Source: Marsupella aquatica
Taxonomy: Eukaryota > Plantae > Marchantiophyta
NCBI GenBank assembly: GCA_973895155.1
Contig: OZ316892.1
Coordinates: 26,993,233 to 27,057,232, forward strand
DNA length: 64,000 bases
Reading direction: 5' to 3'
Under the pieces are notes generated by a model, which was not told the DNA's origin, made no database searches, and saw only the letters and a program-made list of their open reading frames with translations. The position numbers and the translations under genes are program-made. The first letter of the stretch is position 1. Each line of letters begins with the position of its first letter. Shown in pieces: positions 13,458 to 55,802 of this stretch.

Positions 13458-13465
13458 GGCAAGAG

Positions 13466-20533: not shown

Positions 20534-20959
20534 ATGGGTCGTAGATATGAGTCTGCACCAAAGGTTTTGCCCTGTTCAATTTCGAAGCCAATTTTTGAGG
20601 GTGTGAATGCCTTCTTAGTTCCAAATGAATTTTCAAGAGCTCATTTTGAAGTTTTCCATAGAAAGCTAATTGAACGTCATGGTCAGCTTTGCACTGTTGC
20701 TTCCAGCAACACCACTCACATTGTTGCTGGTTCTTGGAGAGCAGTCATGTCCGAGTGGACATGGTCTGGTGTTAATTCCCTCATTCAAGAGCAGGCATTG
20801 AAAGTTGTCTAATTTGAATGGATGTGCGAATCCCTCAAAGAAGGAGTCCTACCGGAAGAAGGCCCTTTCAACTTAATGTTGACTGAGGTAGAGTCTGAGG
20901 TAGATTGTGCTAAGAGAAAAGTAGAACAGATTGAACAGGATAAGGCAGGTTCAGTTTGA
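20534..20959 (+). pseudogene. Single BRCT-domain protein; TAA at 20810-20812
   Basis: IFEGVNAFL...TTHIVAG...LKVV*FEWMCESL. Homologous to the first BRCT of ORF 52556-53419. Confidence 0.8.
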
Positions 20960-21289: not shown

Positions 21290-21727
21290 ATGGTTGTGAC
21301 ATGCAGTGCATTGTCTGAGTACCATCAACAGAAGGGTGAGCGATTCCATGTGAAGATGATTCACAATGGGGTCGTGCCTACTGACTATGCTGTGACGTGG
21401 GGCTATCCAAGTCTGCCTTGCAACCATTATAGGAGGCTGAATACATCCCCACTAGTCCCAAACAGTATCCGTCTAGTTAAACGGACACTTGGGGTGTTGG
21501 ATGAGGACTGTGTCTTCCTGGAGGCTTGTCTCCATTGTCACACCCAGACATGTGATCGTTGTAGGGGAGGTCACTCAAACATAGTGCAGACTTTTGCACA
21601 GTACATGGCAAGAATGGCATGGGGCCGTTGCCTAGCATGGAATACTTGTCATTTCATCAATGATTGTGTCTGTGATGGGACACGTCCAGGTTCTGCCCGT
21701 GATGATGATGCACATTCAAGTTGTTGA
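21290..21727 (+). CDS. ~145-aa Cys/His-rich protein of unknown family (copy A)
   Basis: Open ORF; aligns with 37818-38264 and 55353-55802 (ACLHCHTQTCDRC). Confidence 0.72.
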   Translation: MVVTCSALSEYHQQKGERFHVKMIHNGVVPTDYAVTWGYPSLPCNHYRRLNTSPLVPNSIRLVKRTLGVLDEDCVFLEACLHCHTQTCDRCRGGHSNIVQTFAQYMARMAWGRCLAWNTCHFINDCVCDGTRPGSARDDDAHSSC

Positions 21728-21894
21728 CGTCTAATTTGCATTCCTCATATTGCAAGATGGATCAAAAGAGCCCACAGGGAAGTGATGCCCCTGGTGGAGG
21801 CTACTGGCTGTGATTGCTGGTGGACTGTTGCTCCTTCTGGTACATCACATGCCTGTCCCTATTTTTGAAGGTAATTTTGCAGATCTTGTTCAGC

Positions 21895-22590
21895 ATGGCA
21901 CACATCGCTCGTCAGTTGCTGGATCCAAGATTTGGGCATAGGGAGCACCTTTGTATGGATCCCCCTTGTTGTTTTGAATGTGACGAGGGAGGAACTGTTT
22001 TGTTCTGTGATGGCCCTTGTGGTCGCCATTTTCATTATATAGTTGATGGCCACAACCCTGATGAAGAAGATGGCCATGGACCTACATGTCAGCGCATTGT
22101 CATTTCCAGAGGTCATGATTGGGCTGCAGCTTGGCTCTGTGATCTCAGTCAGCAAAACAGAGGAAGATGTTTTGGTTGTGGGCTCCTTGGCAGAACCTTG
22201 AGACCCAGCACAGATGAGCCCCTTGTGGTCCAGTGTTCTCATGATGATTGCTACTCATTTTACCATGTGGGTTGCCTCCGGACACTTCTGCGATTGGGGG
22301 AAATGCCATTCACCCGCCATCGAGATAACCCTGATGCACATCCCGATGCTTTTATATGCCCACGACATTACTGTGAGGTCTGTAAGGAGTATCGGGAGGG
22401 CATTTGGGACTTTGTCCAATGTTGTAGATGCCCTCGTGCATGGTGTCGTGATGAAGGACCAACAGCAGACAGACACTTGAGGAGAGGGGTGAGGGGCCGA
22501 GACACCTGGGACATTGGATAGTGGCACATGATTTATTGTAATCGCCATGTCATTCTAGAGGGTTCTGATATCCCTAGTACCCATGACTAG
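21895..22590 (+). pseudogene. EDM2/NSD-type multi-PHD finger protein (copy A); TAG at 22519-22521 near the C-terminus
   Basis: CFECDEGG...CDGPCGRHFH; CFGCGLLG...QCSHDDCYSFYHVGCL; FICPRHYCEVC...QCCRCPRAW; IYCNRH after the stop. Confidence 0.85.
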
Positions 22591-22912
22591 ACACATCATG
22601 ACTGCTACAAATTCCATCTTACAAACTTCAACCTTTTTTGTAGTGGACCCATAAGACAACCTAAATTATATGAACTTAAGTATTTGGTTGAATGCTATGG
22701 ACTTAAGTATTTCGATGAATGAAAGGGACCTAAGTATTTGGTTGAACAAAATGGAATTTTGATGAATTGAAATGGACTACAATAGATTGAGTGTTCAGAT
22801 GACATTGTGAATGGTTGACTTGAGTCCTGATCTTTTTCCATGTCTATCCATTGTTGTATGACAGGTTCATCTACCTAATCCCTCTCCCTCACAGCCTGTA
22901 TAACTGTCCATC

Positions 22913-25900
22913 ATGGCACACCTAGGCATGAGCTCTGTCAGATTGGTAGAAAAGGGTGAGGAGGGAGGAAAGCCTGATATGCCAATCTGTGTCATGTCCT
23001 TCAAAGAAGGGCAGACTCTGGCAGATTTTTGTCTAAAATGTGTTGGTGCAGTAGAGTTTGACTTTGATTTTGGGGATGAGAGGTTGTCTGGTCGAGTCCG
23101 GCGCTTTTTAGAGAAGACTGTTGGGGTGACTGAACTTCAAGGGACAATTTACGTGATTGCAGAGTTACCCTCAATTGCCTTGCCTGCGGAGAGGGTCACT
23201 ATTGGTTCCTCTCATTCATCTGCTGCCATTGTGTCCAATGTGGCAGGCACGACTCTATTGTCTCAAGGACAAACACAAGGGGTGCCAGTACAGGCTATTG
23301 TACAGCCTGTCACGGGCTCCTTTGAGTCTCACCTCATATCTGAGGCTGCATCAAAGGCTTGGAATGATGAGTGGGTGGAGCTACAATCCTGGGTAAACCA
23401 GAAGGGCTTTGGTGAGCACAAGTGGAAAGTGCGGACGTGGGATGAGGGAGGGGAGTGTCAAGGTCATCTAGAATGCTTAGAGTGTAGGGAGACTTATGGG
23501 AATGCAGCCACTTCACAGGTGCTCAAGTCCATTGCAAATTGCTTTAGCAACTTCAAGACAAAGCACCTGACCAACCCTAAACACAAGGAGAACTGGTGTA
23601 AGCGAAGGGGTTTAGCTGGAGCTTTGGTGACGGCTGCTGACACTATACAGCAACCACTGTTTGATCATAGTATGCAAATAGGGGCTGGTGTGGAAATAGT
23701 GGGAAAGTTGAATGCAGAGGTAGGTGGGGTGGTAGAAGTGTTCTCTATCACACCATCTCCCACTGATCCAACATTTGCACAGAGGTCATTCCTGTCTAAG
23801 GTGAGATGTACAGTCTGTGGTGAGCTACATACTGACATGTGCCTTAAGAAATCCAATTTGGAACACAATTTAAGGCAACATCTTGTCAGTCGGGATCATA
23901 TGGATGCACTTGAGAACGTCGTCACCAGTACCCAGGCTGCACTGAGGGCAAGGAAGAAGGGGAGACCAAGGAAGCCTGATGCTCGTGATCTGTTTCCATC
24001 TCAAAATTCTATTATGAATTTCTTTAGAGAGGACAACTCTGCTGCAAGGAGCAGTTCAGGCAGAGGTGGGTTGTATTCCTCCATTGAGCCAAGTTTAAGT
24101 TTGCTTTGTTGGGGCTATGGGAGTCAGAGGTCAAGTGGACAGGGGATTCTATGGCTGTGAAGGGCATACTTGATGATCAAGAGGGAGGGAATGTCTGGGA
24201 CTGTGACCGTACCACCCGTGCTGAGGTTTTCAATATAACTAGCCAATTAGTTGTTGGTATACAGGATTGTTTTAGGCACAAGCAATGTCACAGGGTGTCC
24301 ATTAATGGAGGTGGTTTTCAAAACCTCACTTGCACTCTATGTGATTCTATAAAACGTGAAGATGATTTTCGTGGCAGGGTGCACAGGGAAGCGAAAGCAT
24401 TAGTGCAGAGAGGAGACAGGACTACACAGGGTGGGATGAGGTTGGCATACTTGACCAAAACCGAACTGAGGGAATAGGTTGGTAACCTCAACACTCGCTT
24501 TAGGAAACAGCGTTGGCTGTTGGCACAACAGGCTCAGAAAATTTGTGCCTTGAGTGTTAGGCGAAAGAAGCTAGAAGATTTATTAGGAGTAGCCCATGAT
24601 AGGAAAGATTTAAGACTGTTTCTGAGAAATATTGTGAATGGACATAGGCATGGTGCTTTTGGTGGCAAGGAAGGGTTGTGGGATTTCCTGACAGATGTAG
24701 CTAAGAACTTGCAGAGAGTTGCTAAGGGTTATCAATACAGTAAGAGAACCAAGGCCTTTTCCCAAGCCATGTTCTAGTTTGGAGGTAGACAAGTGGCTCA
24801 TTGTTTCCAGGAAGATCTAGGTGGTCCAGGTCTGAAGACCTTAAAATGTGATAGAGCAAAACTACCACCCTTTAGAGCTGGCATTCAAAAAGAGATATTC
24901 CAGGAGGTGTGCAGAGTACTATGTGCATCAAAGCAGTCACTTGGAATTTCAGGAGATGTACCAGTAATGTTTGCTGAGGATGAAACAAGGATAAAAGAGA
25001 GACCCAGGTTTGTGTTTTTGTCTCTATAGTAAATTAGCTTGTTCTTTTCAATGTGTTGGATGAGTTTGCACGTCATGAGCTGATGTCTGTATTGTATTGT
25101 GTGTAACAGATGGGAAGCTAAATATGACACCCTCATTGGTTTCTGTGGCCCCTTAGAGGAGCACACATGTTCTTTTGGCTTGGAAGTATTGGTTGGAGTA
25201 GGTACTGAAGGGTATGACAAGATTGTAAGTACTTTTGAGCAGTATGCCAAAGACATGTATGCTAGAGTAATCATTGTCAATCTTGAGCTGCATGCAAAGA
25301 TGCCTAAATTGGCATTGTGTGTTGTACCAACATGTAACAAGTTTAAAGCTCCCTGGGTAAGAGAGCATTGGGTGCAGCTAAAGTCCATGTGGGACACACA
25401 TTGTAGAGACAGTGTTGGTCCTTTGTTGGGCCATGCTAGTGATGGTGATGCTCATCGTAGGAAATTGATGATGGAAGATTATACTGCTATGAATGTTTCC
25501 TTTCCTAGGTACAGTGTAGGATGGGTTGGGTGGCAATACTCAGTGTCCATACTTTCGAATGGAGATTTATATGGTTTTGGAGACCAAGACCCACCTCACA
25601 ATGGCAAAAAGGCAATTAACCCATTAGACCGAGTGTTTGCTATGTTAGTCCTTGGTGATCAGCATGCATCTTTGTCAAATGTCACATCTGTTTATAACCA
25701 CTATGCAATTCATGAGCATGGTTTGCATTGGGATGATGTGAATAGGACAGATAGACAAAATTGGGCTGGCCCACAACGAATAGCTTCCAGGAGAGTGCAA
25801 GCCTGCCTGCAGCATATGTATGAGCAATGAGATGTTTGTCATGACAGAAGCTTTGGGACCATGATATACTTGGAGGTTTGTGCAGACTACATGGATATTT

Positions 25901-27513
25901 TCTTCTCTGTTAAGTATGACCTAAGAACCCGTGTTGTCTTGGCATCAAAGGTATCTTGGTTCTTCCGATTGTGGAGGCTATGGTTGAGGTATGGTGATCA
26001 TTCTGTGATAGGGAATGTTGGATCTATCACAGAGAAGAACGTGATTTTTGTGTAGGCTTTCCATGATATCAACATGTCTTGTCATTTTGTAGTATTGTTA
26101 ATCTGTGCCTTTTGGGACAAGTTCCCATATCTGCAAGTTCCATTTCACTTGCTGGGATCAGATTGTTGTGAGATATTTTTCAGCAAGGTAGGTGGCATGA
26201 GTGGCCATGAGAGAAATGATGACTTTGGATCTCTACTGGATAGTGCATAGTGCAGTGAGACTGAATCGACTAGCTGGATTAGAGTATGGACCAGAGGGAT
26301 TGAAGATACGTCGATCACATGATAAACAAGATCATGTTTGGGCAACTTTACATCCTCTGGATGAAGGAGAACAAGCTCCAAATTTATTTGATTACTCTGC
26401 AGTTCAGACTAATGATCTGGTTGTTGATGCTCTAAAGGAAGGTTTGGGGGAAGCAAAGGATTTGTTGTGCAAGTTGAACATGTCACCAAGGAGTTCTTTG
26501 CCAGCAGCGAAAAGACGATGGTGGGTTCATCCTTGGGAGGTGGAGGCAGAGACTTGGCCAGATACAAGTGTCATGAAAGAGGCTGTGTTATGTGATGATG
26601 CTGAAGACATAGTTGAGCATCGACCTACTGTAGGCCCTAGACCTGAGCCCCCAATTAGAGAGTTTCTAGAGTTTGATGATCCTGAAGAAGATCTCAATCG
26701 GATTGATTCATGGGACACTCTGGACAGTCATGATTGTATTGAGCCATTAACAGTTGATGATTGTGAGATTGAGGTGGACACTGACCCATTTTGTGAGATG
26801 GAAACACTAGGACATGAAGTAAGGCATGTCTTGGCTGGAGTTCAAGCAGACTTAACTGATGTACAGACACCCCGGTCAGTGGTGTCTACTGTAACTTATG
26901 AGGGAAGGACTATCTACAAGTCCACTCTTGTTAGTCAATTGTGCTGCAATCCTTTCATGTCAAAGGATCTAGGCTAACTAGGATAGCCCAGAAGACCTAT
27001 TACACTACTGGTAAGGAGAAGAAAAATGGTGACTCTGTGACTTGTTTGGTTGACATTGGTACTGATATAGCAGTTTTGTTTGAGTCTGCTGCAGAGGTTG
27101 GTCCTTCTACCAAATTATCCAAGTCAAAGAAGAGGAAGGGAAGAGATAAGGCGTCTACTGTTGTCAAGGCACTATCTGCAAAGAAGGAATATTGGTTGGG
27201 TAGGATTGAGTTTATGATACAGAAGAATGGCTCCCATTGGGTCAGACGTCAAAAAGCAATAGATCTGTTGGACAGGCCTGTACCTGCAGTTGGATAGAGT
27301 GGAAGTGTGTGCCGCTTGCAATGTAATTGGTACAAATCTATTGGTAACAACAAAACTTTGTTCACTTATGATGCAATGGATGGACAATGGATTGATATTG
27401 AGATGGTAATTTCAAATGTGAACTTGACTATGAAGTCTGGGGTAGTTGACAGAGTATGTACTAGATCCAAATGACTTGCAGGCTTTGACCACATACATTC
27501 AGAGTGTGAGTAA
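22913..27513 (+). pseudogene. P-element/THAP9-like DDE transposase with N-terminal C2H2-type fingers and AT-hook; several stops and frameshifts; intron 25008-25109
   Basis: Ordered motifs FAEDETRI (24970-24993), HASDG (~25432-25446), DPPHNGKKAINPL (from 25588), DRQN (25750), GSDCCEIFFSKVG (from 26155) match the P-superfamily pattern FDE / SD(G) / DxxHxxKxxRN / QDxxExxF. Confidence 0.75.
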
Positions 27514-29588
27514 ATTATGATATATACTTGACTATTGTTTATTGTAAGTAGTTTATTGTGTGTGTATGTGATGCATGTTTAGGGTTAGTGGGAGGGAGTA
27601 GAGTAGGGGATGGCGGATTGGAAAATTGAGATTTATGCTCAATCAGGGGTTCAATTCCCCTCCATCATGTGAACATCATCATGTTGGGAGCTTGTGAAGC
27701 AAGGTAGAGAACCAATGCCTTGAATAGGTAACCTATGGTGTTTGGTTACCTATTCATGGTATCTGGCACCCACCATGCTTCACTATTCAAGAGTGAGAAT
27801 TACAAGTTGTTAGATGATCGTGAATGCAATTTACAAGATATTCAGCTTCATAATCGAACTGCATCGAATGTATTGGAAATGCATATCAATTTACACAATT
27901 GGCTCTACACTATTGAGGTACTTTACTTTCCTTAATAGGCATTTTTTTAATCATCATAAACTTTACATAAAGTTTTATAGGGGTAAACAATTCAAAAAAT
28001 GGCCGCTTTTCAGAAAGTAAGGGAGTGATGAAAAAAAATTCACTTAAAAGTTAGGGGGTCCAGACCCTAAAACGTCGCACGTGATGTAGAGCCCTACATA
28101 CAGTGACCCCTCCGAGTATGGAATGCCCAAAATTGTTACATGATCACAATGAAAGAATATATTTGAGAAAAAATCTCAATACAAGTCAAACTAAAAATAA
28201 AATATTTTACAAATTGCAGGAAAATTCATGAAAAAATAATAAGAAATGCCCAAAATTGTTACATGGTCACAACAAAAAAACATCTTTTCATATGATGATC
28301 ATTTATGATGAGAGAAGCTTACGAGGTTATGCCCCTAGAGGTTGACCGGCACGAGTGTTTTGACACATGGGTGAGAAACAAACGTGAAATTACCGCCATT
28401 TGAGCTAGGCTAGCATGGACCGATATTACGGCCCTACGTCGCAACTGTAAACGGCAATAGACATTCACCTACTTCATAAAGATTGCAACAGAAGAACGCA
28501 TAGCTGAATGAAGGTTGCGTTTTAGAAAGCTCATTACCGGAACGAGAAAGTCTATAATGGCGGTAAGAAGCTCGGTTTTGGATTGGATGAATTCAGAATG
28601 ACGCACAGTTGAATAAAGATTACGATTTCTGGATGTGATTACGAGCATATATTAAAAAGCTCATTGGCGGGACAACAAAATGTATAATGGCGGTCAGAAG
28701 CTTGATGGTGAGTTGACGATTTTAGAGAACTATGTGCAAACAATCGCAATGGGGAATAGACCATTTTCTGCGCCATAGGGCGCCACTTTAAAGAATCTCA
28801 AGCCGTTGGTGGAATCCACAAGATTGCAGAATTTCATCTCCCTCACCTTTCCGAATGAAGGCACTTCTTCTGTCATTCACCAGCTCAACACTAGTAGAAA
28901 ATGGGGCCTTTTATGACTATGACACATATGACTTATGTGCTCAAATGACAAAATATGTAAATGACATAACATAAATGACATTGAAATGACTATCCAAAAT
29001 GACGGGGTGCAAAAAATGACTAATACTTACAATAGTGTCATTTAAACCAATGAGCCAAATGACTTTGACTGCTATAATGACAATAATCATGAGTTGTAGT
29101 CATTTTGGAAAGTCTTTGTGAATGACACAATTAACAAAAACTGTCATATCAGTGTTTCACATATGGGAAGTCATTTCAGACGACAGTGACTAATGACTAA
29201 TAAATCAAATATTAGTGTTTAAAAATGTTAGTAGTCATTTAAACCAAAAGTGATAAATGACATGATAAACAACATATGACTATTTTGAGGTTTATGGTTT
29301 GTATATATTTTAGGGTTTAGGGTATGATTAGTCATTCAAAATGTATGGTAGTATATATAAAGACTAGTGGCACTCACATATTAGATTTGAAATACATTTA
29401 GAGACCTAACAAGCCTTCTTTTGTTGTGAGTCACATCATTAAATTGATGTACAACTTAAAGGCTTGATAATCTCTAATAAGTATGTACATTTATATATAC
29501 TTGCACCCATTTATTACATCTTTCCTATATATGCCAAGGACTCCTGAAGTGTTTACATTCCTTAAGATGTATTCACATTTCACATGTT

Positions 29589-30273: not shown

Positions 30274-30384
30274 CACATGTTGGAGTATATATGGGGGCAT
30301 GCAAGGTTGCCAAATAACACTCTCGAGCATAGGTCTAGGGTTTAAGGTTTAGAATTTAGGTACTACATGCCTATATTTGCTCAT

Positions 30385-34820: not shown

Positions 34821-36856
34821 GTTTTAGGGTGAAGGAGCTGAGGTCCGCTGCGCCTAATTTGTGATCACATTGTGAGTTCCCTTACGGACTTGGAACTCCT
34901 CACAGGTGCCCTTACTTACTGCCACCATTCAGTTCATGAGCTCGAGTCGTGGTGACAATTTTTGAGCCCATTTCTGAGTAGAGGATCAAACATTGGGTTA
35001 CGAAGTGGGTGCATTGAAGCTCCATTTGAGGTGTGGTTGTGTTGGAGTTGGAGCTACAGACAAAGATTAGGTCCTGAGCAGCAGTCGCAAACAATTGAGG
35101 AGCACAGGACGTGATACGAGGTGGGGGCCGCTTCATTTCATTGCTGTGGTAGTTGGCATATTACTTGCGCCTTGGCTACCTCGTTTTTCTTTTTGGCATC
35201 GACTGTTATTGCTCTGAGTTCTCTCTCTGTTTTGCTTCAAAGCTCTGTCCATTTTGTGGTGCCTCGCTTGTACAGCAGGAGAGTTCCTTGTATAGCAGGC
35301 TCAGGGACTGCGACTGTCTTTCATTGTGTGTTGTGTTATGGGCTGCAAGGTGAGAACTGCGCTCCACATTGGCGAGGACGGGATCCCTTTCTTTCAGTTT
35401 CAGTGAAGGGCCAAGCTGCAATTGAAACGCCTTTACCTGCTGCCATTTAAACCGCTTTGAGCTCCTTGAAGCTTGGGTTATCAGGTAAGAGTATGGATCT
35501 ACATTGCCCTTATTTGTTGTCCTCTTTGAATATGTACATAGCTCTACCCGATGGGGAGTATGACTGTACACTCAGCTAGAACCAAGGCAAGTGGTTGCAA
35601 TAGTGAATGAATGCTACTATCGGCCACACAAATGAATTCATTCAAGTTGAATGTTTGAGACATTCTCTAAAGTTTTACGGACTTTGCTTATATAACCCGG
35701 CGTTTGCTCTTCCGTAAGCTTTGACTGTTTATTATTGTGCGACGTGAGATTGTATGAAGGTGGGAGCTGCACTCCACACTGGCAAGGACCAGAAGGTTTT
35801 TTTCAGTTTCCAGTGAACGACAGAGCTGCAACTAAGGTAGAGCTGTGCTACATTCTACCAAGGCAGACATTGGACCTGCAAGTTTCAGTTTGAGTGAAGG
35901 ACAGAGCAACTCAGGTACAAGCAAGCTGCTAGTTCGATTAACTGAGTTGCAAGCAACTTCCAACATTCAGTGAGACTGCGAGTGATTGGAGCTACGACAA
36001 GAGCTGCGATCAACGTGGGCGGACATTGGACCTACATTGGACATTGTGTCCCCATCAGTAGAGTGCACAAATCCTGCTAATTTGCATTTTGGTCCTGGCC
36101 TGGCTTGCTTTGTGGTCCTATGCACTGTGCATCCTTTGTGTCTCCATGGAATATCAAATAGTTACATAGTTTGGTTCTTGTCTCTGCTCTGAGTACAGTG
36201 CTGTGCATTATTGTTTCATCGAGCTCCTCAAGACAGTACCAATTTGTAGAGCAGCATGTAATGCTAGGTTTGAACACCAAGGACCAAGTAGTTTTTACAG
36301 AGTCTCGGGTACAAAGCCAATGTATGGAGAGGTCAAAGGCATGAGGATTTTTCTTTAGTACAGAGTTCTTGGGATCTACAAATAATGCTTGTACATGGAC
36401 AAAGTATTTCTCTATAGATTTGTTTTTAGTCTGCCTGACTGCAGCCACTTTGTTGTCCTTCCATTCCACTCCAATGTTTGTAATTTTCTCAATCTATTGA
36501 GCCTGTCAACTCAATTGCTGCTACTTTGTTTATTTTCAACAACTTTGATAGAACACAAATTAAATAGATAGCCAGTGTGAGTCAACAAATTTTCAGAGAG
36601 TAAATCCATCCCTAGATTTTATCTCAAAGAACCATGTTTAACTTTTTGCTCTTTGTGCAGAGCACGCAAGAAGCATTGCCAAGTTATTGTACTCCGTGAA
36701 ACTTAGGTGGGCAGGACATCTGTTGATTTGGACTTTTTGCTCTCTCACGGTAAGTACACTACACACACGCTCTTCTTGTTTGTGTCTTGCCCCTCTCCAT
36801 AAACTTCTTGTAATATTCACTTAGGTAATTGTGCAGATCCACACATCACATCGGGC

Positions 36857-37486
36857 ATGGCACGGGCTGCTGCTGCCTGGCTGGATCCAAAGTTTGCCCA
36901 TAAAGAGCACCTTCGCATGGATCCCCCTTGTTGTTTTGAATGTGATGAGGGAGGTACTGTGTTGTTCTATGATGGGCCTTGCAGTCGTCATTTCCATTAC
37001 TTAGTTGATGGGCAGAATCCCGAGGAGCCTGATGGCCATGGGCCTGAGTGCACACGCATTGCCATTGCTTGTGGGCTGCTTGGCCGAATTTTGAATCCCA
37101 CTACAGATGAGCCCCTTATGGTCCAGTGTGCACAGGATGACTGCTATTCCTTTTATCATGTGGGTTGTCTACGGACTATACTGAAGGCGAGGGAGTTGCC
37201 TCTGATAGGGTACCCAGAGAACCCAATTGCACATCCCGCTGCTCTGATATGCCCAAGGCATTATTGTGATGTTTGCAAGGAGTATCGGGATGGCATCTGG
37301 GAATTTATCCAGTGCCGTAGGTGCCCTCGTGCATGGTGCAGGGATGAGGGACCAGAGGCAGACAAACACCTGAAGAGAGGGGTGAAGGGTAGAGAAATGT
37401 GGGATATTGGTCCATGGCGTATGGTGTACTGCAATCGCCATGTCATTCCAGAGGGTTCTGATGTGCCACCTCATGATTTCAAATAG
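36857..37486 (+). CDS. EDM2/NSD-type multi-PHD finger protein (copy B) with a 23-aa in-frame deletion relative to copy A
   Basis: Open 209-aa ORF, closely similar to 21895-22590; lacks SRGHDWAAAWLCDLSQQNRGRCF. Confidence 0.85.
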   Translation: MARAAAAWLDPKFAHKEHLRMDPPCCFECDEGGTVLFYDGPCSRHFHYLVDGQNPEEPDGHGPECTRIAIACGLLGRILNPTTDEPLMVQCAQDDCYSFYHVGCLRTILKARELPLIGYPENPIAHPAALICPRHYCDVCKEYRDGIWEFIQCRRCPRAWCRDEGPEADKHLKRGVKGREMWDIGPWRMVYCNRHVIPEGSDVPPHDFK

Positions 37487-37817
37487 ACCATAAGCCTTCA
37501 ATTGTGTAGGAAACACTGCATAGTACAAAGTATACTAAACATAAAAGGGGCTAAGGACTTATGGAAGTATACAGGTTTTAAAATGGACTAAAGGACTACA
37601 GTGGAACACCAGACCTTTTGGTTTGATGAAAATGGAGTGAAGTGTCAAGTTGGATTGAATGGACTAAACTGTGAGATTGTATGAAATGGGGTAAATTGTC
37701 TGATGGACTAAACTCAAATGGACTAAACTATCTGATTGTATGAAACATTTGGTTGAATGTTAAAGTGTTTGCATGGGTTCCCGGATAAAATTTTGGCTTT
37801 TTGTATTTGTCACAGTA

Positions 37818-38264
37818 ATGCCAAGAACACTCAGCAGCTTGGAAGCTGACCTTGAAGGCAGAGCTGAGAGGCTACGCCTGAAGCTGAGTGGAATGAGGTT
37901 GGTCCCTGGCAGCTTTGCTGTGAAATGGGAGTTTTTGCCTGTACAGAGAGACACGCACAGTCAGCCCATTACTCTAGATGCTCCACCCTTGCCCATAGGT
38001 TTTTGTATTGTGGCAGTCAAAAATGGAGTGGTACAACCAGAGCAGATATGCTACTCTGCCTGTATCCACAGTTGTGAGGATTTTTGCCCAAAATGTCAAG
38101 TGCGCCCAGGGGATATATATAGGCGGGATGGACATAGTAGAGTGCAGAGGAGGTGTGCCTGTATAATGTTTCACCATGATGAGCCGGTCTTGGGACCAGG
38201 AGTTGAGACTGTTTGCCCAAGAGTAGAGCAGCACTTAGTGGAGAAAGACCAGTATCAATTCTGA
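37818..38264 (+). CDS. ~148-aa Cys/His-rich protein of unknown family (copy B)
   Basis: MPRT...RAERLRL...ACIHSCEDFCPKC...RRCACIMFHH; homologous to copies A and C. Confidence 0.75.
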   Translation: MPRTLSSLEADLEGRAERLRLKLSGMRLVPGSFAVKWEFLPVQRDTHSQPITLDAPPLPIGFCIVAVKNGVVQPEQICYSACIHSCEDFCPKCQVRPGDIYRRDGHSRVQRRCACIMFHHDEPVLGPGVETVCPRVEQHLVEKDQYQF

Positions 38265-39256: not shown

Positions 39257-42200
39257 ATGGCTTCTTCTAGCCAGGCTGGATCACATAACACTGCACATAC
39301 AACAGAGGCAGACAACCTGAGAACTTTACCTCTTTCCTATCCTAGTCGAATACAACGTCGTGATGATAACTTATGGGCTCGGGAACAGACAGCTTGCTCT
39401 GGTAGTGCTGATCATAGAATGTATTGCTCTTGCATGCAATGCAAAGGGATTGTTAAGACTACTCGAAAGACCAGTCGACAACATCTTCTTAAGAATGGCC
39501 GCTACCCTGCCTATCGAGTGTGGGTAGGAGAGGGTGAAGATTCTTCTGATGAGGAGTGGAGATCCAATTACATCCGTAACTCTGGTCCAGAGGCACTGAG
39601 GGCAGGAATGTCTCGAGAGGCATTCCACTCAGGCCAACCAGCAATAGACATTGAGGAGCAGGTCAGAGTTTTGCTTCAGGAGACATTGGCAAGAGCTTCT
39701 GAAGAGTCTGACGAATTTGTGGATAATGATCCTCCTTTTGATATGGATTCAATGTTTCAAAATGATGAGATTGAGGTAGATCCACCCTCTGTTGAGACCA
39801 GTCATGAGGACACACCTACAACAGGGCGTCCTATGAATCCTGTCCCTCTGCAAGGGTCTTTAGAAGAAGCAATGAGACCCTTATTTCCAGGCAGTAAGAC
39901 AGATGTAGTTTCCTTCATGTTGTTGTTTTTAAACATCTGTCACAACAATAGGTTCTCAAACACGGGAGTGAATGCCATGCTGTCTTTGTTGACTGAGCAT
40001 GGAATGCCAACAGAGCACACTCTCCCTAAGAACCTATATGCTGTAAAACAATTACTGAGAAAATTGGGTTTAGACTATGAGAGAATCCCAGTCTGTGAGA
40101 ATGGATGTATGTTATTTAGAAATGAGACTGTAGAGTTGGACAATTGTTCCAAGTGTAATCAACCAAAGATGAAGTTAGTGGGGAATTCTTTACAGCCTGT
40201 GAAGGTCTTGAGATATTTCCCTATAATCCCTCGATTGAAGAGATTGTATACTACTAAGGGTACATCTAAGCTAATGACTTGGCATCATGAGAACAAGAGC
40301 AAGGACAACATGGTTCGACATCCAGCAGATTCAAAGGCATGGAAGCATGTGGACACAGAAATTGACCCTACTTTTGCTGCTGAGCCAAGGAATGTGCGAA
40401 TGGGATTGGCACTTGATGGGGTAAATCCATTTGGGAATAATTCTACTGCCTGGTCTACATGGCCAATCCTGCTGTTGAATTATAATATCCCTCCTTGGCT
40501 TTCCACAAAGAAGTTCTTTGTCATGCTGGCTCTTCTAATTCCAGGTCCTGTGTCTGTAAGCGAGGAACAATTTGATGTATACATGGCTCCACTTGTGGAT
40601 GATCTTGAGACATTATGGTCAGAAGGAGTAGACTATTTTGATGTTCTACCAAGGCTAGGATTGCAGCAACAGTTCAAGCTAAGGGCTTCAATATTGTGGA
40701 CAATCAATGATTATCCTGCATATGGATTAGTCTCTGGACAACAACATGCAGGGTACAAAGGATGTGTGGTTTGTGGGCCAAATTGTGTGGCACATGGTTC
40801 AAAACAGTTGGGCAAGTTACTATTTGCTGGCCATCGTCGCTGGTTACCACAGAGGCACTATTTTTGCAAAGAGGAAGTGGCAAAATACTTTAATGGTGAG
40901 GTAGAGGCACGAGCTGCACCGTGTAGAGTGTCCAGCTCTGATAGGAAACGTTGGGGAGAAAAGGCCGCTAAATATGTGGAGAAGAACCAGGGAATGCGAT
41001 GGATGATGAAAACTCTCCAGTAAAGAAGAATGGAGTGAAGAGGGTTACTGGATTATACAAGTTGCCGTACTGGAGTGTAAGTATCTGGTTCCCCATACTG
41101 CTTCCCTCAGTGTGTAATGTTAAGTAGCAAAGAGTAACATTTCTTATTCTAATTTAGTTTGTACTAAACTGTGCGTCCAATGCAAAAACTTCTCATCAAC
41201 CATTGTTTGGATCCCATGCACTGTGAGAAGAATCTTGCACACAACATTGTGCACACTATTTTGGGGACAAAGGATACTCCTTCTGTTCGAGAAGACATGA
41301 AAGTCATGGATGTGCGGGAACACCTGTGGCTGGTTTCAAATCCAGATCCAAAAAAAGATTCAAAGATCATGCCGCCAGCCCCATACTGCCTCAGTACGAC
41401 AGAGAAGACTAAGTTCTTAGAGGTATTGTTGACCTTTAAAGGGCCCACTGGTTTCAGCAGTTCTCTGGCTAAATGTGTCACAGTTAAGAAGAAGTTATCA
41501 GGGCTGAAATCTCATGATTTCCATCACCTCATGCAACAAATCCTTCCATTGGCAACAATGGGATTACTTGATGAAGGTGTTCGGTTGGCCATAGCCAGAG
41601 TGAGCAATGTGTGGCGTACCATCTGTGCCAAGGTTTGGGATCCCTCACAGTACGACTCTATGATGATGGATGTTGCATTCACACTCTGCCTTATGGAAAT
41701 TCATTTCCCACCAAGCTTCTTTGATGTCATGACCCATCTATTGATTCATCTGGTTCAAGAACTAGACATCTGTGGTCCAGTGAACATTAGATGGATGTAC
41801 CCAATAGAAAGATATCTAAAGACCTTGAAGGGTTATGTTCGAAACAAGGCACGTCCAGAGGCTTCCATGGCTGGAGGCTACCTTCTGGATGAATCTTTAG
41901 GATTCCTTTCTGAATACATGATCGATGTTAAGGGGACAGGAATGAGAACATGGGACTTGGAGGAGAATCCTAGTGTTGCAGGCATTGTCTTGGAAGGAGC
42001 TGGAAAATAGATCACCTTGGAGTGGAATGATATGATAGCTATGCATCATTACATACTGGAGAATGAAGAGCTGGTGGAACCATGGTATAGGTATGAGCAT
42101 GGTTTATATTGTTAAGTTCTCTGTTGTTTTTTTAAAACAAAATTGAGTTTTGAGCAGAAATTGTGTGGGCCTAGGAGCTGACTGTCATTATTGCCATGCA

Positions 42201-43042
42201 GGGTTTATGATGATCAAAAGGAGGCAGTTACCAAGCACAGAGCAGATTTCCGGAAAGAATGGATGAAGAATCCAGGAAATCGGAGGAATCCTGTGCCTTA
42301 TCCCTCTGATTTGGATGAGTTGCCTCCTTTTAGAGAATGGTTTGAAGTGACAATTAGAAGGCATAATTTTGAGAATGAGTTTGAACGAATGGTGTTGGCA
42401 GCGTATAGTGTACCACCTAGTCTGAAGGCACTACGGTACAGGGCCTGTAGAGCCTATGGGCACCATTGGAGGACCATTCCATCACTAGGTTCCTTGATTG
42501 ATTGTGACTCATCTGGGTTCAAGACTTTTGATTCTGGGATGGCTTGTACATTCACTGAGAAGCGGGTCATTAGGTCAGGGGCAACAGTAGATGAATCTGT
42601 ACAATATGTGGGGGTGTTGACAGACATCTTAGTGTTGAACTATGGGCCTCTGATAAAGGAAGTGGTCCTTTTCAAAGGAAGGTGGGCAAACCCATCTTGG
42701 ACTCCCAAAGCCACTGCAAGTATGAGATATGATGCGTCTGGATTGTGGCAAGTAAATTTTCAGAAGGAGCTAGGTGCTTCCAAGAAAATGGACTATGTAT
42801 TGCCACGACAGGTAGAACAAGTGTTTTTTTACCCAAATGATAAGGGGATTGCATGGAGAACAATCCTCGATAAGGAATCCAGGTCTACAAGGGTGCTGGG
42901 TGATTACATGGAAATTGATTTCCATGATACTATGGATGACAATGCTAAGTTTCACATAGAGTTGCCAGAAGCCTGTACAACTAGACAGGAGCCTGGACCA
43001 AGTACTACAGACAAAGGAAAAAGAAAGTATAAAAGAAAATGA
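39257..43042 (+). pseudogene. tnpD: CACTA-2 TnpD-like transposase; introns ~41077-41190 and 42091-42201; frameshift near 40990, TAG at 42008-42010
   Basis: Motifs MYCSCMQC, IPVCENGCMLF, LALDGVNPF, YNIPPW, WTINDYPAYG, LDPMHCEKN, GLKSHDFH, FFDVMTHLLIHL, WMYPIERY, VVLFKGRW. Confidence 0.93.
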
Positions 43043-43705: not shown

Positions 43706-44472
43706 CACTAGTAGAAATCGGGGGGTATTTAGACCCCATTAAACGACTATTCAGTACCGTATAGGACTTGGAAACGACTGGGAAGGACTCTAGTCCTTTA
43801 TAGGATTGCGAGTCGTATGTTTTGTTACTATAATCAACTGAGTCCTTTATAGAACTGGTTTATAAGTCGTTTAATAGACTGGATTTTCAGTCTATTTTAG
43901 TCTTTGTGTGGGTAGCTTTGGTGAGTCGTTTTTAGTCTTTTATGGGCTGCGATGATGAGTCGTTGGGAACGACTAAAAAGGTTATGGAGGGTAGTCTTTA
44001 AATATACTTTGTGGGGTATGTATAAGTCTTTTATGTCAACTGGATATGAGTGATGAAGACCCCACTATACTACTTGGAATGAACTCACTCTATAAGTTCA
44101 CCATTCATCATGTTAACATTAGAATACATAGTTTCAGAAAGCCATCTTCTATACCATGTACACTAATATGAATTCACAGATTCAAACTTCATAGACTACA
44201 AAGAAGGTCACAAAGTATTCCTCTATACCATACACACTAATACTGAAATGATAAAATAGATTCAAGTATCATAGACAATCACCATAGAGCCATAGTTTGA
44301 CATCAATCACTTGTTTCATACATACAGAATTCAGAAATATCAATGTCACACACAACGTCTCCTTCATCCTCTTTACCAAATGGAAAAATTGGTACAGATA
44401 TTTCTTGGATCTTTCCAAGGCAATGTCAAAATGTGACACAATTCACATGATGCTATCTACACTTGCATTCAG

Positions 44473-47821: not shown

Positions 47822-50800
47822 CTATTGCAAATCATCAACCTCATCATATTCCATTTGCCCAGGTTCATCATATGTCTCTCTCAATGTTAAGGGGATGTAG
47901 TCAGTCCCTGCCCGAGTTGGAAGTACAGTCTCATGACTAGGATGCTCGAATGCAGCATGGTCATCCAAACTGAACTCTACTTTACTTCCATCCATCCGCC
48001 TGTTCCGTGCTTGGCTATGGCATACCACCCTCTAGCCATGTGACTCCTCCACATCTGCAAAGAAAGCCTGTTCAACTTGGCTAGGGAAAACAAAAGGCTC
48101 AGACCATTCTGGTACTCTGGACCTAAAATTGGCCAACAAGAACCCATCATGATCACGCTTCATGGTGGCCCTTGGTCTCTGCCACTCTGATTTCACCCAT
48201 GATCCCTTCATCAATATCACTGGGACACTTGTGTTACCATAATTCAACACCCAAATGTCGGTCAACTCCCCCACGTAACCCATCTTCATCCACCCCCTCT
48301 ATTCTTCAGAGGTTCTCTGCTCAAACACAGAAATCAAACCACAATCATATGATACACAATGGTCACCCTGCTCATCCCTCACTAGATAATGATTTCCATA
48401 AGCTCTCATCCGTTTGTAGGTCAGAATAGACAATCGTGGTGGCACAGATAGAAGATACAAATCCTTCTCCATATCTGGGTGATGTCTACTATGCTCTCGA
48501 ATTGTCACCCGAATCCACTGCTCGAACTGTGGGAAGGGATCCTGCTGCCCAGAGTGTGCAGCTTTTTGCATATCATATTCCCTGCATTATGAGGTACAGG
48601 CATAGTTAGGTCTAAACAACACATGACAACCTAAGATCACCCTTGGAACAGACAAGAAGCATCACAACAAAGGCAAGTCAATTCAATCACTCACCTCCAC
48701 CATGGTTGCATAGGCTCTGTGTTTGCCAGCACATATGAATGAGCCTTGTCTCGAATCGCAACAGGCAGCTGAACAGCACGTCCCACACCTTCAACAACCT
48801 CGCCACTCACTCCATCATCTTCACCAGATTTCCAAACTCTTGTCATAGCTTCACCAGACCCAGCCATGTACTCTGTTAGGAATCCCAACGTCTCATCCTT
48901 AATGTACCCCAATGCCATGGAAGCCTCTGGCCTGTAGTATGTTCTCACATGACCTTTCAACAACTTCATGTATCGCTCCATAGGGTACATCCATCTGGTA
49001 CTGACTGGCCCATACTGCCCTAGCTCTTCTACCACATGGATTAGGAGATGAGTCATAACATCAAAGAAAGCAGGGGGGAAGTATATCTCCAAGTCACAGA
49101 GGACATAAGCAGCATCCTGCTTCAACTGCTCCAATCCTTGGGGATCCCACACTTTCACACATATACGGCGAAATACATTGCACAGTCGAAGAATGACATT
49201 ACGGACTGGTTTCTGCATGAGACCTCTGAGGCATAGGGGCAGAATGTGCTGCATCAACACATGGTAGTCATATGTTTTCATACTGCCAAGTTTATTCTTT
49301 GTAATATGCTTCTTGAAGGCACCAGCATAGCCAGAGGGCACTTTCAGACAGCTCAATCTATACAAGAATGTCTTCCATTCATCCTGTGTGCACACATAGG
49401 GAGCTTGGAACTTGAGAAGTACATTGGGATTGCTTGCATGGGGCTTCAACCAAAGGTGAGGGCGAATCCCCTTCTGTTGCATATCAGCTCGAACTGCTCC
49501 TGTATCTTTCTCACCCGACAAGAACTTCAGCAAGCTCTCACAAATATTTTTCTCAATGTGCATGACGTCCACATTGTGTTTGCTGGGCTCGAATTCCTGC
49601 ACTCCACAAAGCAAAGAATTCAACAACAGAAACACTAATTAACCACATAGGAGGATTGTAACCAACATCAATCCACCATTGCTCCAATCTAAAATTGCAA
49701 TCATACAGGGGCTGGAGGCTAAGTACATTACCCTCCAGTACTCCAACTCCAAGTCCATCAAGGTCTGTCTTTTCACACCGTGTTTCACCACTGGATCCTC
49801 AGGTTCTCGATCAGTGGCACTTCTCTTGTCCCAATCAGCCTTCCTGGCTGCCCACCTCAGGACTTGCTCTCTGGTGACCCTCTGTGGTGGGCCACGAAGC
49901 TCTGTTTTGTTGTTGAAGTGTGCAATTTGAGACCGTGTGTGCCTGTAAGGATGATCAACAGGCAGATACCTTCTATGCCCCTGAAATTTCATACTGTGCA
50001 GGGCATGCGACCACTCACTTGTCACATTTTTCCCACATGGTGTGCACCCCACATAGCCCTTTGTCACTCGTCCAGATATGATGCCATGGCCTGGGTAATC
50101 TGCTATATCCAGCAAACAAATTGCATGCAGTCTAAAGGGGCTGGGTCGAAGAAGCCCCTTCAGAACATCATGGGTTAACACCCCTTCTATCCACAAAGTC
50201 TTCCACTCTTCCACTGCTGGAGCCAACATGATATCTATGAATTGCTCGGTCACAGAAGCTGGTCCAGGGATTAACAGCACCATCATGACAAAAAACCTCT
50301 TTGTAGTCATCCATGGGGGAAGGTTGTAATTTAGCAGCGTAACCGGCCAACATGAATAACGGTTGTTTTTGTCTCCAAATGGGTTTACTCCATCCAGTGA
50401 TAGACCAAATCGAAAGTTCCGCTTCTCTGCAGCAAACTGTGGCCACCTCTCATCAACAAATTTCCAATGGTTGGAATCTCCAATGTGACGCTACAGGCCA
50501 TCACTGCTCTTGTTATCAGGAGTCCATGTCATCAGCTTGGAAATGGCAGGGCATCTAAACAGACGTTGTAGTCTAGGAATGAGAGGAAAATGACGAAGAA
50601 CCTTGGCAGGGTGTGTACATTTCCCTACATTCTTGTACCTGTGCTTACCACAATGAGGGCATGTCAATTTATCTGCAGGCTCTTTGCGAAAGAGAACACA
50701 CCCATCAGGGCATGCGTCAATAGACACATAGTTCAGCCCAAGGTTAGACATCAATTTCCTAGCCTCGTACATATTTTTTGGAATTGAATTACCATCTGGT

Positions 50801-51519
50801 AACACATTTCGGTGCAGGAAGGTCAACAACTCTGTCACAAATATATTGGGAACATTGTGATTGCCACAGATGTTCAACAACACGACAAAACCCAGCTTGG
50901 AGCAGTTCGACCCCTCGTAGATAGGAATGCAAGCTTCTTTGATGTGTTTTGGGCCCCCAAACACCCACTCCCTCTCTGCTGCACCTTCCCCAATGTCAAA
51001 GTCAGGTTGAGCTTGGCCGTCGCCAATGTGTGGCTGTGGTTCATTGTCCTCTTCTGATTCCACTGTGTCGTAAAAAGCATCAAGGTCTTCAAAAATCTCT
51101 TGAACCATTCTTGGGACATCCATCCCACCGTCCTTAGTGACTGCCTCTGCATCTCCATCTTGGTCATCCACGTTCTCATGTTGGACCCCAGGACCATCCT
51201 CTGCACAGTCTATGTCCTGCTCTACGTAGTCTCTACGCCTAGCTGTATTAGAATCCACAAAGTCAGCTCTCCACTCTTCATCAGAGGAGTCTTCTTCTGC
51301 TGGTACATTCCAAACCCTCCACCGAGGGTGCCTTTCATGCCGCAGCAGGTGAAGGTGCACAGTGTTCAAACTCAACGACTTGAATCCTTGGCACTATGTG
51401 CATGGGCATCTCATCCTCCTACTCCTACCTTGGGCGGCCCGGGCTTGTTCACGCATCCACAATTTAGAATCATGATGCCTAATCCTAAATGGGTTGTGAA
51501 GAGGCAACCTTGGAGCCAT
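47822..51519 (-). pseudogene. tnpD: CACTA-3 TnpD-like transposase with introns, stops and frameshifts
   Basis: Motifs MRCPCT*CQG, IDACPDGCVLF, DIADYPGHG, VDVMHIEKN, MKTYDYH, FFDVMTHLLIH, WMYPMERY, MKGSW. N-terminus (EDSSDEEWR) shared with the CACTA-2 transposase. Confidence 0.93.
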
Positions 51520-52555: not shown

Positions 52556-53419
52556 TCACTCTCTCCCACCTTTGCTAAGCATACATCTCCGCTGAATCTT
52601 GGAGGGCCAGGCCTCAAAAATATCAAAGTCCCAAGCATTCTGTCGCTTCCCTCTAGCTGCTGATTCCAGAAGCCAATCAGGGGAAAGCACCCAAAGATTG
52701 TTGTTCATGACAAAATCACGCACTGTTGTCTTAAAGAATTTTCTGCATATTTTCATGTATGACAGACCTACAACATGAGTGGAGGTTTCTGTTAGACTCT
52801 CCTCCACTGTCCCACCTAGCTCAACAACTATAGACTTGTACAGTCTGCACTTAGTCTCCCCAATTCCTTCTTCTGCAAATACCACACTGAACCCCTTCAT
52901 AATGGTATTTCTCTCCTTGCCATGCTCATTCAATATAGCATCTGCACGCATAGGATGGTGTCCTATGTTGACAACAGGTCCATATTGGACAGAAGCAAAG
53001 TTGGGTTTCTCTGCCGCTGCTTCATAGGCTTCCTTTTCAGCCAAAGCCTCTGTAGTGGCCTCCTCACTCTCCCACAACTCATATTGCTCAGTACTCTGTA
53101 CACACCTATGTTTAACAGAATCGGTCAGCCAAGAGACTTCAACTACTTTTAGACCTTGGTTGGTAATGGCAGAATCAATGAAGGACCATGACCACTTGTT
53201 CGTCACATCCAGCCATGTCCCCGCAACAACATGTGTAGTCTGTGGAGTGATGTCCTTGACTTCAGTCCCATGGAACTCTGAGAATCGTTTTTGTACGATT
53301 GGCCAACTCACTTGGGTGAACCCATAGTGGCCAGGAATCAAAATGGCTTTGATTCCAGCCAACAGAGGCGGGTGGTCAACCTTTGTACGTTTCCTAGAGG
53401 CCATGTACACACGGGCCAC
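52556..53419 (-). CDS. Tandem two-BRCT-domain protein
   Basis: Intact 287-aa ORF with TTHVVAG...LKVVEVSWLTDS and ELGGTVEESLTETSTHVVG...VLSPDWLLES. Confidence 0.88.
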   Translation of the reverse strand: MARVYMASRKRTKVDHPPLLAGIKAILIPGHYGFTQVSWPIVQKRFSEFHGTEVKDITPQTTHVVAGTWLDVTNKWSWSFIDSAITNQGLKVVEVSWLTDSVKHRCVQSTEQYELWESEEATTEALAEKEAYEAAAEKPNFASVQYGPVVNIGHHPMRADAILNEHGKERNTIMKGFSVVFAEEGIGETKCRLYKSIVVELGGTVEESLTETSTHVVGLSYMKICRKFFKTTVRDFVMNNNLWVLSPDWLLESAARGKRQNAWDFDIFEAWPSKIQRRCMLSKGGRE

Positions 53420-54002: not shown

Positions 54003-54683
54003 TCAAAGCCAAGAAATGTGATCTCTCATGGGAGTGTGCAAAGTAGGATCTATGGCATGGCGATGACAATAGAAGATCCATCGATCAACACCATGTGCAG
54101 AGTGATCATAGATGTGTCTGTCACAAGCATAGCCTTCTACTTGACGCTCCTTCAAACAATGAAAGTGCCACATGGTGGGACACCTAACACAGTGGACTAT
54201 GTCCACCCAGAAATCTTCATCGTGCTGACCACATGCCTTGCACTTATGAAGTGGGCAAGCTGTGGCAAGATCGGGCAAACATGAAAAACAAAAGAACCTC
54301 ACACAATATCTGTCAGGGCATTTCCTAACAAGTGGTGGAGCATCAACAGAGCCCTCATAAGACCCCAACTTCCCACACTGTGCACACTTAGCCTGCTTCT
54401 CCAAACAATCAGTGCACATCCAGCCTCCCTGGTGTGCTGACGGGAGGCCCACCCTTGGACAGTTGTTTTCTGCAGCAAGGTCAGACTCCGGGTTGAGGTG
54501 GAAATGCCTCATGCAAGGGCCCTCACATATGGCTAAGCCACCACCATCGTCACAAATGGCACAACAATGAGCTGCCTTCTGGAAAATCTGACTTGCGGAG
54601 AAGTTACTACCATCTGGCCCAACTACACCTGTGTTGCTCACCTCTGTCCCCCGCTTCTTGGCTCGGATTTTAGGGCGTGCCAT
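54003..54683 (-). CDS. EDM2/NSD-type multi-PHD finger protein (copy C), intact, with N-terminal basic patch
   Basis: CAICDDGGGLAICEGPCMRHFH...WMCTDC...CAQCGKLGS...CPDRYCVRFF...CPLHKCKAC...CVRCPTMWHFHCL...IFYCHRHAID. Confidence 0.9.
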   Translation of the reverse strand: MARPKIRAKKRGTEVSNTGVVGPDGSNFSASQIFQKAAHCCAICDDGGGLAICEGPCMRHFHLNPESDLAAENNCPRVGLPSAHQGGWMCTDCLEKQAKCAQCGKLGSYEGSVDAPPLVRKCPDRYCVRFFCFSCLPDLATACPLHKCKACGQHDEDFWVDIVHCVRCPTMWHFHCLKERQVEGYACDRHIYDHSAHGVDRWIFYCHRHAIDPTLHTPMRDHISWL

Positions 54684-55352: not shown

Positions 55353-55802
55353 CTAGAGCGTGTGATCCAAACATGTGTAGACACCAAAGTGACCGGTGGT
55401 GGGGTCTGGGAGGGCAGGACAAGTGACATCGCCAGGCACACTGCAGGATGGTGAGTGGTTCCAGATGATACATTGTGCTCTGTGAAAAAACCGACATCCA
55501 AGAGAACGGTCATCCAACTCTAGGCCAGAAGCCCTACAGGCAGGACAGTCATATTGGCAACTGTGCACACACCCTTGGGCCCTAATTTGTGGCGGGTCAT
55601 GTATGAGAGACAGAAATACCAAGGATGTTGGGAAGGGTGGAGAAGCAGGTATAGGCCGGCTGTAGTTGTTCCTGGCAACAACTGGGTACTCAAAGTACCA
55701 TGCAGACTGGGCTGGAAGGATCCCAAGTCTGACATACTCAAGGCGCAACATCTCTGCCTTGCGTGCAAGCCGCACATGTTCAGCATTGCGGGTCCTCACC
55801 AT
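55353..55802 (-). CDS. ~149-aa Cys/His-rich protein of unknown family (copy C)
   Basis: MVRT...KAEMLRL...GCVHSCQYDCPAC...RAQCIIWNH; homologous to copies A and B. Confidence 0.75.
   Translation of the reverse strand: MVRTRNAEHVRLARKAEMLRLEYVRLGILPAQSAWYFEYPVVARNNYSRPIPASPPFPTSLVFLSLIHDPPQIRAQGCVHSCQYDCPACRASGLELDDRSLGCRFFHRAQCIIWNHSPSCSVPGDVTCPALPDPTTGHFGVYTCLDHTL

What the first reader, a model, noticed from the sequence alone, without database searches (positions are those of the whole stretch)
36830..37486. PHD gene appears to have moved between superfamilies: the CACTA-2 copy is closer to the P-like copy than to the CACTA-3 copy
Seen: copies A (21895, P-like) and B (36857, CACTA-2) share long identical stretches (MDPPCCFECDEGGTVLF, DDCYSFYHVGCLRT, RCPRAWCRDEGP) and the upstream context AGGTAATT.TGCAGATC. 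Copy C in CACTA-3 is far more distant, although CACTA-2 and CACTA-3 have related transposases and near-identical TIRs. A-B differences are frequent at third codon positions. B lacks 23 aa spanning the PHD1/PHD2 junction. Inference: cargo exchange between unrelated DNA transposons, followed by purifying selection.
Basis: partly seen in the sequence, partly recalled or inferred. Interest (0 to 1): 0.7.

Follow-up and report, generated by a model that had tools for sequence, protein, structure and literature searches.

The report
Chromatin-reader gene shared across transposon superfamilies
Two unrelated kinds of jumping DNA in what is likely a moss- or liverwort-type plant genome carry closely related copies of a small gene resembling the histone-reading part of the plant protein EDM2, so the gene likely moved between them and was kept by selection, possibly to help them get around silencing.

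Summary
PHD genes A (21895) and B (36857) are 73% identical, each about 30% to C, with dN/dS 0.17. A sits upstream of a transposase whose relative folds like P-element transposase. The element's right end (28116) matches the inverted repeat of a complete relative with an 8-bp target duplication. No left end lies between A and the transposase, and contig depth runs evenly across both in four public runs. B sits in a CACTA. The PHD family is a stand-alone version of the EDM2 PHD block. New here: the P-like element also carries BRCT and Cys/His genes shared with the CACTAs, but only 28-35% identical, so the PHD gene moved separately from and later than the rest. A CACTA-like end 55 bp after A suggests the cargo arrived as a nested CACTA module. 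B's 69-bp deletion is probably not fixed; both window copies carry private disabling changes. Not shown: the P-like left end (outside the window), direction of transfer, expression, function.

The parts
36857..37486 (+). PHD cargo gene B (EDM2/NSD-type PHD block), damaged copy: 69-bp deletion and Cys38 to Tyr
21895..22590 (+). PHD cargo gene A, damaged copy: Cys85 to Ser and TAG at codon 209
54003..54683 (-). PHD cargo gene C, distant subfamily
20588..20956 (+). BRCT cargo remnant in the P-like element, 29-35% to the CACTA-3 BRCT gene
21290..21727 (+). Cys/His cargo gene A, 28% to the B and C versions
22634..22645 (-). CACTA-like terminus motif (CACTACAAAAAA) just after PHD A; possible relic of a nested CACTA module
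22646..22850 (+). 3' trailer of A, probably homologous to the trailer of B (37617-37770)
22913..27441 (+). broken P-superfamily-like transposase gene (about 1500 aa in intact relatives)
28101..28116 (-). right terminal inverted repeat of the P-like element
28889..28902 (+). left terminus of CACTA-2
37773..38264 (+). Cys/His cargo gene B
39257..43042 (+). CACTA-2 tnp2 transposase (Transposase_21, DUF4218, DUF4216), broken
43706..43719 (+). 3' terminus of CACTA-3, inserted into CACTA-2
47948..51507 (-). CACTA-3 tnp2 transposase, broken
52556..53404 (-). BRCT cargo gene of CACTA-3
55353..55802 (-). Cys/His cargo gene C

Best explanation
A P-superfamily-like transposon and a CACTA transposon carry closely related copies of a stand-alone EDM2-type PHD gene, which likely crossed between the two superfamilies and was kept by selection, most likely as a chromatin reader that helps the element be transcribed despite silencing. 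Steps: (1) Shown: A and B form one clade, apart from C and from cellular EDM2 proteins, with omega 0.17. (2) Strongly supported: A lies inside the P-like element and B inside CACTA-2. (3) Inferred: the P-like family gained a BRCT-Cys/His-PHD module by nested insertion of a CACTA-derived cassette into its 5' region, between its left end and its transposase. (4) Inferred: a roughly 1-kb unit (PHD gene plus trailer) was later copied on its own between lineages, probably during gap repair or nesting and deletion. I lean slightly (about 55:45) to P-like as donor and CACTA-2 as recipient. (5) Predicted, untested (about 40%): the protein binds methylated H3 tails on the element and mimics or competes with host EDM2, which in Arabidopsis binds H3K9me2 and suppresses premature polyadenylation in heterochromatin. 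That would favour read-through to the downstream transposase.
For: A-B 73% versus about 30% to C; A, B, P0001 and P0002 form a clade at 100/99; AU test rejects B grouping with C, p 6e-56. With 16 longer proteins added (mostly named EDM2-family or liverwort cellular proteins where looked up), the 14 stand-alone PHDs stay apart from them and A and B are sisters (quick tree). Transposase relative P0012 (56% to the window's core) folds like Drosophila P transposase, E 8e-10, the only entries under 1e-3. Locus L001 has a perfect 26-bp TIR and an 8-bp TSD; the window's end at 28116 matches it at 14 of 15 bases and shares a subterminal CACGTG box. The best match to that TIR in 18716-22913 is 11 of 16, inside a coding region. 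Single-contig depths over A equal those over the transposase: X4 1251 versus 1130-1409; X3 199-238 versus 263-266. The bin between them shows no dip in 4 of 4 runs, and depth falls after the right TIR. In X3, B and Cys/His B (315-359 summed over 2-3 contigs) track tnp2 (271-306). 0 of 60 loci of P-like relatives carry PHD, BRCT, Cys/His or tnp2 matches. CACTA-like end at 22634-22645: 3 matches in the window, 0.14 expected, the other two being real CACTA ends. A's trailer beyond that motif scores against B's trailer above all but 0-3 of 1140 control windows. The family profile retrieves EDM2 proteins; EDM2 function from passages of PMC7529245.
Against: The P-like left end is not in the window, so containment is not closed by a TIR pair and TSD. 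No listed contig spans 22590-22913 in one piece (11,589 pieces were not shown), and the tool warns that contig depth is not copy number. Depth is 3-10 times lower over 18717-20400 than over the element body, so most copies differ there. In X4, contigs over B and Cys/His B reach only about 780-1500 against 3900-4700 for tnp2, so only part of that family carries B at 85% identity. The CACTA-like end pattern was chosen after seeing the site, and no matching left end or TSD was found. Only 27 of 60 relative loci have 1 kb or more upstream of the transposase, 16 have 2.3 kb, and many are duplicates. The element context of all database PHD homologues is unknown. No function or expression was tested. 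A long-branch warning applies to the tree.
Confidence: 0.68

Rival explanations
1. The BRCT-Cys/His-PHD block is a truncated or non-autonomous CACTA ending at 22645 that lies beside a 5'-truncated P-like element; no gene crossed superfamilies and all shuffling was CACTA to CACTA.
For: CACTA-like terminus at 22634-22645 in right-end orientation; all three genes have homologues in CACTA-3; P-like relatives are cargo-free; the left P end is not seen.
Against: No P-type TIR in the 268 bp before the transposase, whereas L001 and L009 have theirs 635 and about 880 bp upstream. Depth is equal and unbroken across the junction in 4 of 4 runs from two organisms, with no strong loose end listed there. 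A-B similarity probably runs past the motif.
Confidence: 0.13
2. A and B were captured independently from the same stand-alone cellular PHD gene, so part of the low dN/dS reflects host-gene history rather than selection on transposon cargo.
For: P0001 and P0002 are stand-alone members of the same clade with unknown context.
Against: None of 21 short homologues carries an organism name from an annotated genome. The named liverwort relatives are 619-1628-aa proteins outside the clade. Contigs in all 4 runs show Cys at the damaged ligand codons of both A and B, so both families kept the ligands after amplifying.
Confidence: 0.1
3. The gene did cross superfamilies but is a neutral passenger in its new host element; selection acted only in the donor lineage before the move.
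For: Both window copies are pseudogenes; omega was measured only between A and B, not within families.
Against: Family consensus positions are intact at the zinc ligands checked; omega 0.17 over dS 0.94 needs long constraint on at least most of the path.
Confidence: 0.09

Closest known systems
EDM2 (ENHANCED DOWNY MILDEW 2) PHD block; NSD1-3 PHD array
   Same: Same Pfam families (PF23011, PF22908, PF23004) and C-terminal motif; the family profile retrieves Arabidopsis and other plant EDM2 proteins and NSD2/3 structures.
   Different: About 210-245 aa and stand-alone, without the RFD-like N-terminal region and other EDM2 domains; carried by transposons; forms a separate clade.
Transposon-borne accessory genes: VANC and Ulp1/KAONASHI of Arabidopsis VANDAL MULEs (PMC13317346 passages; PMC10398659 abstract)
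   Same: Host-derived or novel accessory genes kept by an autonomous DNA transposon, with a shown or suspected anti-silencing role.
   Different: A histone-reader fold; several cargo genes in a row upstream of the transposase; one gene lineage shared by two superfamilies. Ulp1 domains in several superfamilies are recalled, not checked here.
Pack-CACTA transduplication (PMC13317346 passages)
   Same: Neighbouring or nested elements giving hybrids that carry extra DNA.
   Different: Pack cargo is usually a non-functional host fragment within one family; here a whole ORF under purifying selection passes between superfamilies.
P superfamily (Drosophila P element, THAP9, Galileo, 1360)
   Same: Fold match to 6p5a/6pe2, D(2)H motif, 8-bp TSD in a relative (criteria from PMC3698922 passages).
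   Different: About 1500 aa, no THAP domain found, ends begin CTCGG or CCCGG, occurs in liverworts and a fern, and this family carries cargo.

Membership tests
P superfamily | P-type transposase fold | tested here: met
   Model of relative P0012 hits 6p5a at E 8e-10, TM 0.66 by target; next non-P hit 4e-3. The window's own broken protein was not folded.
P superfamily | DDE triad with D(2)H motif | tested here: met
   D212, D257 and H260 invariant in 21 relatives; window shows FAEDET, ASDGD, DPPH, SDCCE. Assignment of catalytic residues is by motif.
P superfamily | TIRs with 7-8 bp TSD | tested here: inconclusive
   Met in relative L001 (26-bp TIR, 8-bp TSD); L009 has TIRs without a TSD; only the right end is present in the window.
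P superfamily | N-terminal THAP domain | tested here: not met
   No THAP hit in the window ORFs or in 15 of the 22 relatives scanned; hence 'P-like' rather than P.
CACTA/EnSpm (CACTA-2, CACTA-3) | tnp2 transposase (PF02992, DUF4218, DUF4216) | tested here: met
CACTA/EnSpm (CACTA-2, CACTA-3) | CACTA termini at both ends with 3-bp TSD | tested here: inconclusive
   One end each (28889, 43706); partner ends not found in the window. CACTA-1 has both ends and TSD CAT.
EDM2 family | Atypical PHD array | tested here: met
EDM2 family | Full architecture (RFD-like region, methyltransferase-like domain, about 1300 aa) | tested here: not met
   Cargo ORFs are 209-231 aa and PHD-only.
EDM2 family | Binds H3K9me2 chromatin and suppresses proximal polyadenylation | not testable with these tools
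   Known for Arabidopsis EDM2 (PMC7529245 passages).
VANC-type anti-silencing factor | Sequence-specific loss of silent marks on cognate elements | not testable with these tools
   No assay possible; no VANC homology was searched.

The most novel reading that the evidence does not exclude
Bryophyte DNA transposons run a shared, swappable pool of chromatin-factor cargo (EDM2-type PHD, BRCT, Cys/His, SET). The PHD is a hijacked mini-EDM2 that controls read-through to the transposase in silenced chromatin. It went from CACTA into a land-plant P-like lineage and back into another CACTA: horizontal spread of an anti-silencing gene between superfamilies inside one genome.
Probability: 0.25. Interest if true: 0.85.

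Novelty: new variant of a known kind. Interest (0 to 1): 0.58.

Why it matters
Transposon accessory genes are usually treated as family-specific. A selected gene moving between superfamilies that share no transposase or ends would mean counter-silencing tools can spread within a genome like accessory genes in a pangenome. The cargo derives from EDM2, the host factor that handles transcripts crossing silenced transposons, so it gives a concrete test of transposons turning a host heterochromatin reader to their own use. It also points to a large P-like lineage in liverworts and ferns that Pfam misses. My ten paper searches listed no description of EDM2-type PHD cargo or of bryophyte P-like elements; subscription journals and Repbase are not covered.

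Tried and rejected
No whole genome is held, so copies could not be counted or bounded directly. No RNA holder listed. A metagenome scan with the A/B-type PHD alignment found no locus. Pfam and PDB sequence searches did not identify the transposase: only a weak PF21787 hit in 1 of 15 relatives. The VIA-align fold searches were not run because the machine was busy. The first AU test (p 0.27) was mis-specified: it left 12 rows free and only asked whether B branches first within the A/B clade; one search is the proper test. The 8-mer after the right TIR recurs at 20383; rejected as a TSD because no TIR follows, an X2 contig of depth 411 crosses it, and the 8-mer occurs 3 times on the + strand. 63780 was rejected as CACTA-3's far end: the empty-site continuation seen in contigs does not follow it. 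Splice-acceptor-like sites before cargo ORFs: 8 of 11 against a background of 240 of 500, uninformative. No older PHD remnant lies behind Cys/His B. The Cys/His protein has no Pfam hit and its model was too poor to search (pLDDT 49); the Atlas look-up for it did not complete. Look-ups of earlier findings returned nothing that bears on this locus. One paper on transposase signatures was not held.

Full report
Setting. The window is a nest of transposons. An LTR retrotransposon spans 1-18715 (LTRs 96% identical) and holds CACTA-1 (1053-11900, TSD CAT). Then come a P-like element ending at 28116, CACTA-2 from 28889, and CACTA-3 inserted into it at 43706. The named relatives of the P-like transposase come from Riccia, Calypogeia and Adiantum, so the host is probably a bryophyte (inference). 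No whole genome is held.

Observation. A and B are 73% identical (151 of 206), each 30-31% to C. Differences fall 34/31/81 on codon positions 1/2/3; dS 0.94, dN 0.16, omega 0.17 (0.10-0.26). In a tree of 19 stand-alone PHDs, A, B, P0001 and P0002 form a clade at 100/99 on a long stem. Forcing B with C and C's two closest relatives against the other 15 rows is rejected at p 6e-56 (one search was mis-specified). CACTA-2 and CACTA-3 transposases are only 33-48% identical, so B-C distance fits their age. What needs explaining is A-B.

Is A's host a different superfamily? The broken gene at 22913-27441 aligns over nearly the whole length of roughly 1500-aa relatives. Pfam misses it, but a model of relative P0012 matches the Drosophila P-element transposase (E 8e-10 and 3e-9, the only 2 hits under 1e-3). 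The D(2)H motif is invariant in 21 relatives. Locus L001 is a complete element with a 26-bp TIR and an 8-bp TSD. The window's 28101-28116 matches that TIR at 14 of 15 bases and shares a CACGTG box at a similar offset with L001, L008 and L009. No THAP domain was found, so I call it P-like.

Is A inside it? No left TIR lies in 18716-22913 (best match 11 of 16), while relatives have theirs 635 and about 880 bp before the transposase. Contigs of four public runs (two studies, two coded organisms) cover A and the transposase at similar single-contig depth: X4 1251 versus 1130-1409; X3 199-238 versus 263-266. The bin holding the junction shows no dip in 4 of 4 runs, and depth drops beyond the right end. 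Limits: the tool warns that depth is not copy number, no listed contig spans the junction alone, the tables are cut, and depth is lower over 18717-20400. CACTA-2 shows the same drop in its 5' region although its terminus lies further out, so the drop need not mark an end. The left end is presumably beyond the LTR insertion; one X4 contig continues 61 bases past that junction with other sequence.

Is B inside CACTA-2? It lies between the left terminus and tnp2, in the same orientation. In X3 its depth tracks tnp2; in X4 only about a quarter to a third does.

State of the copies. Contigs in all four runs read Cys where A has Ser85 and where B has Tyr38, so these changes are private; A-family contigs may add to the count at B's site. 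Two X3 contigs follow B to 37076 and then continue with sequence like the part of A that B lacks, so intact B-type genes probably exist and the deletion is not fixed. That they align 12 bases past the breakpoint suggests a short repeat at the deletion ends (inference).

The P-like element carries three cargo genes, all with CACTA homologues: BRCT (29-35% to CACTA-3), Cys/His (28% to both B and C; B-C 31%) and PHD. Only the PHD is close to CACTA-2's. The orders are BRCT-CH-PHD-transposase (P-like), CH-PHD-BRCT-ORF-tnp2 (CACTA-3) and PHD-CH-tnp2 (CACTA-2). So there is an old shared kit plus a later single-gene move. A CACTA-like terminus lies 55 bp after A (3 matches in the window, 0.14 expected, pattern chosen after the fact; no partner end found). 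None of 60 loci of P-like relatives carries this cargo, though only 27 have 1 kb upstream and many are duplicates. Both points suggest the kit entered the P-like lineage as a nested CACTA module. A's trailer beyond that motif resembles B's trailer (above all but 0-3 of 1140 controls), and A shares the CH-PHD order with C. Both hint that B was then copied from a P-like element. Alternatively a third CACTA family supplied both. Either way at least one crossing of superfamilies is needed, no older than dS 0.94.

What the gene is. A profile of the family finds 1180 proteins at E 0.001 or better. Of the 10 looked up, three are EDM2 or EDM2-like by cluster name and five are unnamed liverwort PHD proteins. 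The 14 stand-alone proteins group apart from the 16 longer ones in a quick tree with a long-branch warning. At least 21 short relatives exist, none with an organism name. EDM2 binds H3K9me2 chromatin and suppresses premature polyadenylation at transposon-containing introns (PMC7529245, passages seen). I therefore predict that the cargo is a reader-only mimic or competitor of EDM2 that favours transcription through to the transposase. This is untested, about 40%.

Literature seen: passages of PMC9033089, PMC7529245, PMC13317346, PMC13547354 and PMC3698922; abstract and outline of PMC10398659; search listings otherwise. No supplements were read. VANC, Ulp1/KAONASHI and Pack-CACTA are the known precedents for cargo; sharing of Ulp1 across superfamilies is recalled only. 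Ten searches listed no report of this PHD cargo or of bryophyte P-like elements.

Verdict. Containment by a TIR pair, direction and function remain open. New variant of a known kind; interest 0.58.

Noticed in passing
window 22913-28116; loci L001-L060: A large P-like transposon lineage (about 1500-aa transposase, no THAP, TIRs beginning CTCGG/CCCGG, 8-bp TSD in L001) in liverworts, a fern and unnamed metagenome contigs, missed by Pfam.
   Followed up: partly
window 6013-6834 (-): CACTA-1 carries a SET-domain gene upstream of its tnp2 (PF00856): another chromatin-factor cargo.
   Followed up: no
window 51846-52379 (-): Extra ORF between BRCT and tnp2 in CACTA-3; looks F-box-like by eye, no Pfam hit.
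   Followed up: no
window 59961-60326 (+): Intronless fragment of ribosomal protein L18a, probably a retrocopy, upstream of CACTA-3's cargo.
   Followed up: no
window 30508-33841: 8.2 copies of a 408-bp tandem repeat inside CACTA-2's 5' region; VANC targets are also tandem repeats (PMC10398659 abstract).
   Followed up: no
window 29580-30274: Palindromic MITE-like insert in CACTA-2 that is absent from other copies in X3 and X4 contigs.
   Followed up: partly
window 54683 (-); P0037, P0039, P0046, P0047: Several stand-alone PHDs begin MAR(T/P)K, which resembles the histone H3 N-terminus (resemblance recalled); possible mimic.
   Followed up: no
L009:7018-7527: A P-like relative carries a different extra ORF downstream of its transposase, inside its TIRs.
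   Followed up: no
window 63765-63783: A CACTA-like right end followed by AAG that does not fit CACTA-3's empty site; belongs to an unidentified element or is chance.
   Followed up: partly
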